This document shows positions 4,656 to 5,169 of a DNA stretch of 44,896 nucleotides, piece after piece. The notes under the pieces were generated by a model. That model ran no database searches. It was not told where the DNA came from and saw nothing but the letters and a program-made list of their open reading frames with translations. Every line of letters begins with the position of its first letter. Positions within the stretch are counted from its first letter, which is position 1. The position numbers were made by a program, and so were the translations under genes. The DNA lies in the sequence record PQ436005.1; one strand, 5' to 3'. This DNA is from Escherichia phage vB_Eco_K-02.

Positions 4656-5169
4656 AGCGCTTCGTCGCTCCTTTTTAACCCACACAAAACGCAATGTACT
4701 AAGTGGTCGTCGGTGTAATGCCATAAATGACTGCACTCCGACTGACATCCTGTCACCCTAACACCGCCTTCCCGAACTCGCCCGGATACTCCGGTTCCTT
4801 GGCTATGAGTATCTTCTTTACGGCAACCAGATTGCTCAGTCTTAATCCCACGCTCGACCTTGAAGACTTTACCTTTCTCGTCGAAATGTGCGGTAGACCA
4901 TCTATACACACCCGCCGCCAGGTCAATCTGATGCTGTAACTCACTCTGCAACTCCTTAATCTGCGCCGAGTAGACCATCTATACACACCCGCCGCCAGGT
5001 CAATCTGATGCTGTAACTCACTCTGCAACTCCTTAATCTGCGCCGACGCATCGCGTAACTGATTCTTAAGTGACTGCACCTCATGCGCCAGGTCTTCGCA
5101 CCGGTTGTTATTTACCTGCTGCCGTAGCTGGTCAATCAGGTACTCGAATACTTCGTTTTTGTTACTCAT
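4652..5169 (-). pseudogene. coiled-coil protein gene split by a 77-bp tandem duplication
   Basis: One reading frame runs 5169 -> 4652 if a single repeat copy is present; with both copies the frame shifts and two overlapping ORFs result (4753..5169 and 4652..4978). Confidence 0.5.
4893..5046. repeat. exact 77-bp tandem duplication (2 copies: 4893..4969, 4970..5046)
   Basis: Both units are identical base for base on direct reading. Confidence 0.95.

What the first reader, a model, noticed from the sequence alone, without database searches (positions are those of the whole stretch)
4893..5046. Exact 77-bp tandem duplication that frameshifts a coiled-coil protein gene
Units 4893..4969 and 4970..5046 are identical. 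77 is not a multiple of 3, so the minus-strand gene starting at 5169 changes frame after the second unit, giving two overlapping ORFs (4753..5169, 4652..4978) that both encode ASAQIKELQSELQHQIDLAAGVYRWST. With one copy, a single ~173-aa ORF runs 5169 -> 4652 and its TGA overlaps the ATG of the next gene (ATGA at 4652..4655), which argues the single-copy frame is ancestral. So this is a recent duplication, an assembly artefact, or a variable repeat.
Basis: seen in the sequence. Interest (0 to 1): 0.6.

Follow-up and report, generated by a model that had tools for sequence, protein, structure and literature searches.

The report
Untrimmed assembler overlap, not biology
The exact 77-base tandem duplication that appears to break a small phage gene is almost certainly a leftover of genome assembly (a SPAdes k=77 contig-end overlap that ended up inside the sequence when the circular genome was rotated), so it is a database error and not a biological feature.

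Summary
Window 4893..4969 and 4970..5046 are identical, and this is the only exact repeat of at least 25 nt in the window. It splits a minus-strand gene into 138-aa and 108-aa ORFs. Every relative examined has one copy and a single 441-nt, 146-aa gene (not ~173 aa). Only that frame keeps the family's conserved C-terminal motifs.

The duplication is almost certainly an artefact. The window is a complete Kagunavirus genome, rotated after assembly so that it breaks exactly at the terS-stop/terL-start ATGA. Its length (44,896 bp) and closest relative (phiEc4) match vB_Eco_K-02 in PMC12529148, which reports SPAdes v3.14.1 assembly followed by reorientation to the large terminase. 77 is a SPAdes k value, and SPAdes leaves k identical bases at both ends of circular contigs (PMC9409062).

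The other three genomes from that study show the same leftover. K-01 has its own exact 77x2 tandem, at an unrelated site inside the essential major capsid gene. J-01 has a 77-bp terminal repeat, and T-01 a 127-bp one.

The junction has no microhomology and occurs in no public collection. Verdict: not a real feature. Confidence is about 0.95 and interest is low.

The parts
4893..4969 (.). 77-bp unit, copy 1. Either copy can be deleted to restore the true sequence.
   Evidence: TRF; identical to 4970..5046.
4970..5046 (.). 77-bp unit, copy 2. The boundary 4969|4970 is the inferred join of the original SPAdes contig ends.
   Evidence: BLAST against phiEc3 and phiEc4 splits exactly at 4969/4970, and the subject coordinates overlap by 77.
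4652..5169 (-). The true gene, inflated to 518 nt by the extra unit. With one unit it is 441 nt and 146 aa, a phrog_6094 protein of unknown function with an N-terminal helix, a coiled coil, an EQSGCRKEDT motif and a C-terminal CxHxW...CxxCG zinc-ribbon-like motif.
   Evidence: The collapsed translation is identical to the phiEc4, K-01 and phiEc3 proteins. phrog_6094 E=2e-31. Family alignment.
4753..5169 (-). Spurious 138-aa ORF. It is genuine up to residue 67 and then reads the second unit and the downstream DNA out of frame.
   Evidence: Matches phrog_6094 only over residues 1-54. Not on record in any assembly.
4652..4978 (-). Spurious 108-aa ORF. It is the genuine C-terminal part of the gene, starting at a fortuitous ATG created across the unit junction.
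   Evidence: Not on record in any assembly.
4452..4655 (-). Downstream 67-aa gene (phrog_3766). Its ATG overlaps the TGA of the true 146-aa gene as ATGA.
   Evidence: The same 204-nt CDS with a 4-nt overlap is annotated in phiEc4, K-01, phiEc3 and GRNsp50.
1..585 (-). Small terminase gene. Window positions 1-3 (TCA) are its stop codon and positions 2-4 (CAT) are the large terminase start codon. This is the deliberate post-assembly rotation point.
   Evidence: The window end joined to the window start aligns without gaps to internal terS/terL DNA of at least 41 relatives.
37097..37173 (.). Control site: a single copy of the 77-bp segment that is duplicated in sister genome K-01, inside the major capsid gene.

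Best explanation
The second 77-bp unit does not exist in the phage DNA. SPAdes assembled this circularly permuted genome as one contig whose last k=77 bases repeat its first 77 bases. The contig was then rotated to open at the terminase genes by cutting it and re-joining the old ends, and the overlap was not trimmed. That placed the two copies side by side at the old contig ends, at 4969|4970. The old ends happened to fall inside a small early gene, and 77 is not a multiple of 3, so the deposited sequence shows an apparent frameshift and two spurious ORFs.

The real gene is one 441-nt ORF of 146 aa. It has a coiled coil and a C-terminal zinc-ribbon-like motif, belongs to phrog_6094, and has no known function. 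It is translationally coupled (ATGA) to the next gene.

Shown: the repeat and its exact length, single copies in relatives, the rotation at a gene boundary, and the same leftover in three sister genomes. Taken from the paper: the use of SPAdes and the reorientation. Inferred: that the window is vB_Eco_K-02, and that the overlap was carried inside by the rotation.
For: (1) The repeat is exactly 77+77 nt, 100% identical, with two copies and 0 bp of junction microhomology.
(2) 77 is a SPAdes k value. [quoted passage not shown]
(3) The window is a whole genome rotated after assembly. Its end joined to its start aligns without gaps to internal DNA of at least 41 relatives, and the break is exactly at the terS stop/terL start ATGA.
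(4) PMC12529148 describes vB_Eco_K-02 as 44,896 bp with phiEc4 as its closest relative. [quoted passage not shown] The window is 44,896 bases and is closest to phiEc4.
(5) Controls from the same pipeline. K-01 (PQ435593) has exactly one exact 77x2 tandem, at the unrelated site 38014..38167, which splits the major head protein gene. phiEc3 is 100% identical there, and it, the other relatives listed and the window each have one copy. Collapsing the K-01 repeat restores an intact 349-aa capsid protein. J-01 (PQ438393), which was not rotated, has its first 77 nt equal to its last 77 nt. T-01 (PQ438391) has its first 127 nt equal to its last 127 nt.
(6) All relatives have at most one copy of the unit.
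(7) The junction 36-mer is absent from IMG/VR, the GTDB genomes and the JGI metagenomes. Neither spurious protein is on record.
Against: No reads or original contigs could be examined, so the artefact is inferred rather than observed. PQ436005 is not in the collections, so the window's identity rests on its exact length, its closest relative and its layout. The paper's Table 1 swaps the sizes of K-01 and K-02 relative to its text. The affected gene is probably dispensable, so a true duplication would be viable here, unlike in K-01. T-01 shows k=127 while the other three show k=77, so the SPAdes runs were not all alike.
Confidence: 0.95

Rival explanations
1. A genuine, very recent tandem duplication in the sequenced phage stock, caused by replication slippage or illegitimate recombination. 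It would truncate the early protein after residue 67 and remove its zinc-ribbon-like C-terminus.
For: The sequence as given carries it. The gene varies in length and content among Guernseyvirinae, and NTEC3 lacks the C-terminal motif, so the gene may be dispensable. Perfect identity of the copies would fit a recent event.
Against: The length is exactly a SPAdes k value. The junction has no microhomology. No independent assembly contains the junction. Sister genomes from the same pipeline show the identical signature: K-01 in the major capsid gene, where it cannot be real in a plaque-forming phage, and J-01 and T-01 at the record ends. Nine related phage records or contigs carry the unit as a single copy.
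Confidence: 0.04
2. A naturally variable repeat or a recoding site. The copy number would switch the gene between one long product and two shorter ones, or a ribosomal frameshift would read through.
For: The length of the coiled-coil region differs among homologs. ST20 repeats a PSGSRKEDTQ motif.
Against: No homolog has a tandem DNA repeat in this gene; TRF found none within it in six homolog loci. All the homologs inspected are single ORFs. The length differences are in-frame insertions of unrelated sequence, not copies of this unit. Apart from the window, the unit is found at most once in every locus.
Confidence: 0.01

Closest known systems
SPAdes circular-contig k-mer end overlap (direct terminal repeat of length k), as described for circularly permuted phage genomes in PMC9409062
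   Same: The length is exactly 77, the copies are identical, there are exactly two, and the genome has a circular map. The assembler is SPAdes according to the matching paper. Sister genomes J-01 and T-01 show the classical terminal form, at 77 and 127 bp.
   Different: The two copies lie side by side inside the record instead of at its two ends, because the sequence was rotated before the overlap was trimmed. K-01 shows the same internal form.
Terminal redundancies that end up inside the contig during phage assembly (Phage Annotation Guide, PMC8785237, Question 4)
   Same: A redundancy produced by assembly sits inside the deposited sequence and disturbs the gene calls.
   Different: That guide describes genuine biological terminal repeats that have been misplaced. 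Here the redundancy is purely algorithmic, being k bases long.
Genuine frameshifting tandem duplications in phage genes (classical slippage mutations)
   Same: A direct tandem repeat whose length is not a multiple of 3 and which shifts the frame.
   Different: There is no junction microhomology and no independent observation. The length equals an assembler parameter, and the feature recurs at unrelated sites in genomes from the same pipeline.

Membership tests
Untrimmed SPAdes k-mer overlap carried inside by rotation (assembly artefact) | Repeat length equals a SPAdes k value (55, 77, 99 or 127) | tested here: met
   The period is exactly 77, and the identity run is exactly 154 nt. That 77-bp ends come from SPAdes is stated in PMC9409062.
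Untrimmed SPAdes k-mer overlap carried inside by rotation (assembly artefact) | Exactly two adjacent copies, 100% identical, and the only such repeat in the genome | tested here: met
Untrimmed SPAdes k-mer overlap carried inside by rotation (assembly artefact) | A circular-map genome that was re-opened at a chosen point after assembly | tested here: met
   The end joined to the start is contiguous in at least 41 relatives, and the break is exactly at the terS/terL ATGA. The paper says the genomes were reoriented to terL.
Untrimmed SPAdes k-mer overlap carried inside by rotation (assembly artefact) | Assembled with SPAdes | tested here: met
   PMC12529148 reports SPAdes v3.14.1 for the 44,896-bp Kagunavirus closest to phiEc4. 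This holds only if the window is that genome. PQ436005 itself could not be retrieved.
Untrimmed SPAdes k-mer overlap carried inside by rotation (assembly artefact) | Other genomes from the same pipeline show the same leftover at unrelated positions | tested here: met
   K-01 has an internal 77x2 in the capsid gene. J-01 has a terminal 77. T-01 has a terminal 127.
Untrimmed SPAdes k-mer overlap carried inside by rotation (assembly artefact) | Reads support one copy only | not testable with these tools
   No reads or raw contigs were available. The window's genome is absent from the assembly collections.
Genuine slippage-type tandem duplication | Short direct-repeat microhomology at the duplication boundaries | tested here: not met
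   0 bp: the identity does not extend beyond the 77+77 on either side. This feature is typical but not obligatory.
Genuine slippage-type tandem duplication | The junction is seen in an independent sequence | tested here: not met
   The junction 36-mer is absent from viral, genome and metagenome contigs.
phrog_6094 (the gene itself) | Significant profile match | tested here: met
   E=2e-31 for residues 1-97 of the collapsed 146-aa protein. 220 phage records have a homolog. No Pfam, NCBIfam, PADLOC or PDB match stands above coiled-coil noise.

The most novel reading that the evidence does not exclude
The duplication is real in the phage stock: a recent 77-bp tandem duplication that happens to match the assembler's k and knocks out the zinc-ribbon-like C-terminus of a conserved early protein of Guernseyvirinae. 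That would show the domain is dispensable for plaque growth.
Probability: 0.03. Interest if true: 0.2.

Novelty: not a real feature. Interest (0 to 1): 0.04.

Why it matters
The finding matters only as data hygiene. The deposited genome is 77 bp too long (the true length is about 44,819 bp) and carries two spurious CDSs in place of one 146-aa gene. The sister record K-01 (PQ435593) has its major capsid gene falsely split in the same way, and J-01 and T-01 keep 77- and 127-bp false terminal repeats.

For genome scans it gives a simple rule. An exact two-copy tandem repeat of 55, 77, 99 or 127 bp in a rotated phage or plasmid genome should be treated as an untrimmed assembler overlap until reads show otherwise.

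Tried and rejected
- I searched for the novel junction 36-mer in IMG/VR, the GTDB genomes and the JGI metagenomes, and found nothing.
- I looked up the 138-aa and 108-aa products, and a protein unique to the window (413 aa, 11805..13046), in public assemblies to find an independent assembly of the same phage. None is on record. The helicase-primase only led back to phiEc3 and phiEc4.
- A search of E. coli genomes for a prophage copy found no match.
- A paper search on '44 896 bp' combined with Kagunavirus found nothing. The source paper came from searching for the relatives' names instead.
- PQ436005 cannot be retrieved.
- I asked whether the out-of-frame tail of the 138-aa ORF (…SNLVAVKKILIAKEPEYPGEFGKAVLG) might be the true C-terminus. 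I rejected this because it has no match to phrog_6094, and homologs conserve the other frame's EQSGCRKEDT and CxHxW…CxxCG motifs.
- I asked whether coiled-coil length variation among homologs reflects repeat expansion. I rejected this because TRF found no tandem repeats in this gene in six homolog loci, and the insertions are unrelated sequence.
- Searches for a function in Pfam, NCBIfam, PADLOC and the PDB gave only weak coiled-coil noise.

Full report
**The observation.** The window carries an exact two-copy tandem repeat of 77 bp at 4893..4969 and 4970..5046. TRF reports period 77, 2.0 copies, 100% matches and no indels. A base-by-base comparison shows the period-77 identity covers exactly 154 nt and stops on both sides, so the junction has no microhomology. 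It is the only exact repeat of at least 25 nt in the whole 44,896-base window.

On the minus strand it splits a gene that starts at 5169 into a 138-aa ORF (4753..5169) and a 108-aa ORF (4652..4978). TCAT at 4652..4655 is the ATGA overlap with the next gene. Two details in the finding are wrong. With one unit the ORF is 441 nt and 146 aa, not ~173 aa. The peptide shared by the two ORFs is 26 aa, SAQIK…RWST, not 27 aa.

**What the window is.** It is a Kagunavirus genome (Guernseyvirinae). Its closest relative is Escherichia phage vB_EcoS-phiEc4, at 96.6% identity over 94% of the first 20 kb, followed by phiEc3 and vB_Eco_K-01. There is no match in E. coli chromosomes.

**One copy everywhere else.** The 801-base query around the repeat matches phiEc4, K-01 and phiEc3 at 99.4-100% identity over only 724 bases, which is 801 minus 77. 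It matches GRNsp50 and T102 over 493 bases for 570 of query. In each of phiEc4, K-01, phiEc3 and GRNsp50 the gene is annotated as a single 441-nt CDS with a 4-nt overlap onto a 204-nt downstream gene.

The unit occurs once in every related locus fetched, including an IMG/VR contig, and twice only in the window. BLAST of the window against phiEc3 and phiEc4 breaks exactly at 4969/4970, with subject coordinates overlapping by 77. Deleting one unit from the window gives a protein identical to those of phiEc4, K-01 and phiEc3.

**Which frame is real.** The collapsed protein matches phrog_6094 (unknown function) at E=2e-31, and tblastn finds homologs in 220 phage records. An alignment of eight homologs of 120-216 aa shows a shared architecture:
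- an N-terminal helix, MSNKNEVFEYLIDQLRQQV
- a coiled coil of variable length
- an EQSGCRKEDT motif
- one or two C-terminal CxHxW…CxxCG motifs, which I read as zinc-ribbon-like (an inference from the pattern)

Only the single-copy frame of the window encodes the last two elements. The 138-aa ORF leaves the true frame at residue 68, and its tail matches nothing. No Pfam, NCBIfam, PADLOC or PDB match rises above generic coiled-coil noise, and the function of the gene remains unknown.

**Why the duplication is an artefact.** There are four lines of evidence.
- **The length.** 77 is a k-mer size used by SPAdes. [quoted passage not shown] - **The rotation.** The window is a complete genome that was re-opened after assembly. 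Its last 600 bases joined to its first 600 align in one ungapped piece to internal DNA of at least 41 relatives. The break lies exactly in the ATGA where the small terminase stop overlaps the large terminase start. The assembler's own contig ends must therefore have been somewhere else.
- **The source.** PMC12529148 describes vB_Eco_K-02 as a 44,896-bp Kagunavirus closest to phiEc4. [quoted passage not shown] Length, closest relative and layout all match the window. The accession PQ436005 is not in the collections, so this identification is very probable but not proven.
- **The other three genomes of the same study.** These serve as controls, and all three show the same leftover.
  - vB_Eco_K-01 (PQ435593) has the same layout as the window. 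It has exactly one exact 77x2 tandem, at the unrelated position 38014..38167, inside the major head protein gene, which is consequently annotated as two overlapping CDSs. phiEc3 is 100% identical there, and it, the other relatives listed and the window itself each have one copy. Collapsing the repeat restores an intact 349-aa capsid protein. A frameshifted major capsid protein cannot be real in a plaque-purified phage.
  - vB_Eco_J-01 (PQ438393) was deposited without rotation, and its first 77 bases are identical to its last 77.
  - vB_Eco_T-01 (PQ438391) has its first 127 bases identical to its last 127, which splits the ssDNA-binding protein gene across the record ends.

All four genomes thus keep an untrimmed k-mer overlap: terminal where the record was not rotated, and internal tandem where it was.

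**Independent support for a real duplication is absent.** The 36-base junction sequence occurs nowhere in IMG/VR, the GTDB species genomes or the JGI metagenomes. Neither spurious protein is on record in public assemblies. No homolog has a tandem DNA repeat in this gene. The length differences among homologs are in-frame insertions of unrelated sequence, which argues against a variable-repeat or recoding reading.

**Mechanism, step by step.**
1. *Known behaviour, cited.* SPAdes emits a circularly permuted phage genome as one contig whose last k bases repeat its first k.
2. *From the paper.* The contig was reoriented to the terminase.
3. *Inferred.* The reorientation cut the contig at the new start and joined the old ends without removing the overlap. 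This produced two adjacent identical 77-mers at 4969|4970.
4. *Shown.* That point lies in a coding region and 77 is not divisible by 3, so gene callers see two ORFs.

**What cannot be shown here.** No reads or raw contigs were available. A true duplication in this probably dispensable gene would be viable, so a small residual probability of about 4% remains. Junction-spanning reads at full depth, or a 251-bp amplicon across 4850..5100, would overturn the verdict.

**Verdict.** This is not a real biological feature. Interest is very low, apart from the practical point that this record and its three sister records need correction.

Noticed in passing
L016 (PQ435593.1, vB_Eco_K-01) 38014..38167: An exact 77x2 tandem inside the major head protein gene, which is annotated as two overlapping CDSs (37900..38073 and 38034..39026). 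Collapsing it restores a 349-aa capsid protein. This is the same artefact as in the window.
   Followed up: yes
L017-L019 (PQ438393.1, vB_Eco_J-01) 1..77 and 146504..146580; L020/L021 (PQ438391.1, vB_Eco_T-01) 1..127 and 166037..166163: Untrimmed terminal direct repeats of exactly 77 and 127 bp. In T-01 the repeat splits the ssDNA-binding protein gene across the record ends, giving a CDS at the start and a 'similar to' misc_feature at the end.
   Followed up: yes
window 1..4 and 44896: The rotation point cuts through the terS/terL ATGA overlap. The large terminase start codon plus one base lies at window 4..1 (minus strand), and the rest of the gene is at the window's far end. The terL ORF is therefore split across the record ends.
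   Followed up: partly
PMC12529148, Table 1 versus text: Table 1 of the paper gives K-01 as 44,896 bp and K-02 as 45,245 bp. Its text gives K-02 as 44,896 bp, and GenBank PQ435593 (K-01) is 45,245 bp. The sizes are swapped in the table.
   Followed up: partly
L007 (NTEC3, OK539620.1) 601..1538: The NTEC3 homolog of the gene ends just after the EQSGCRK motif and lacks the CxHxW…CxxCG C-terminus. A homing endonuclease gene follows immediately. This suggests an endonuclease insertion replaced the 3' end of the gene.
   Followed up: no
L010 (ST20), L012 (K1G), L009 (phiWAO78-1), L008 (fFiEco03): The phrog_6094 family is modular. ST20 has the PSGSRKEDTQ motif twice. K1G and phiWAO78-1 have two zinc-ribbon-like motifs. 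fFiEco03 has a ~45-aa insert before the motif. NTEC3 and phiWAO78-1 share a ~50-aa insert after the N-terminal helix.
   Followed up: partly
window 10812..13049 and 18020..19871: The window is a mosaic relative to phiEc3 and phiEc4. Most of the first 20 kb is 98-100% identical to one or both, but these two segments are only about 89-91% identical to both. They cover the PD-(D/E)XK nuclease region, and a region that in phiEc3 and phiEc4 holds methyltransferase and SNF2 helicase genes. This suggests recombinational exchange.
   Followed up: no
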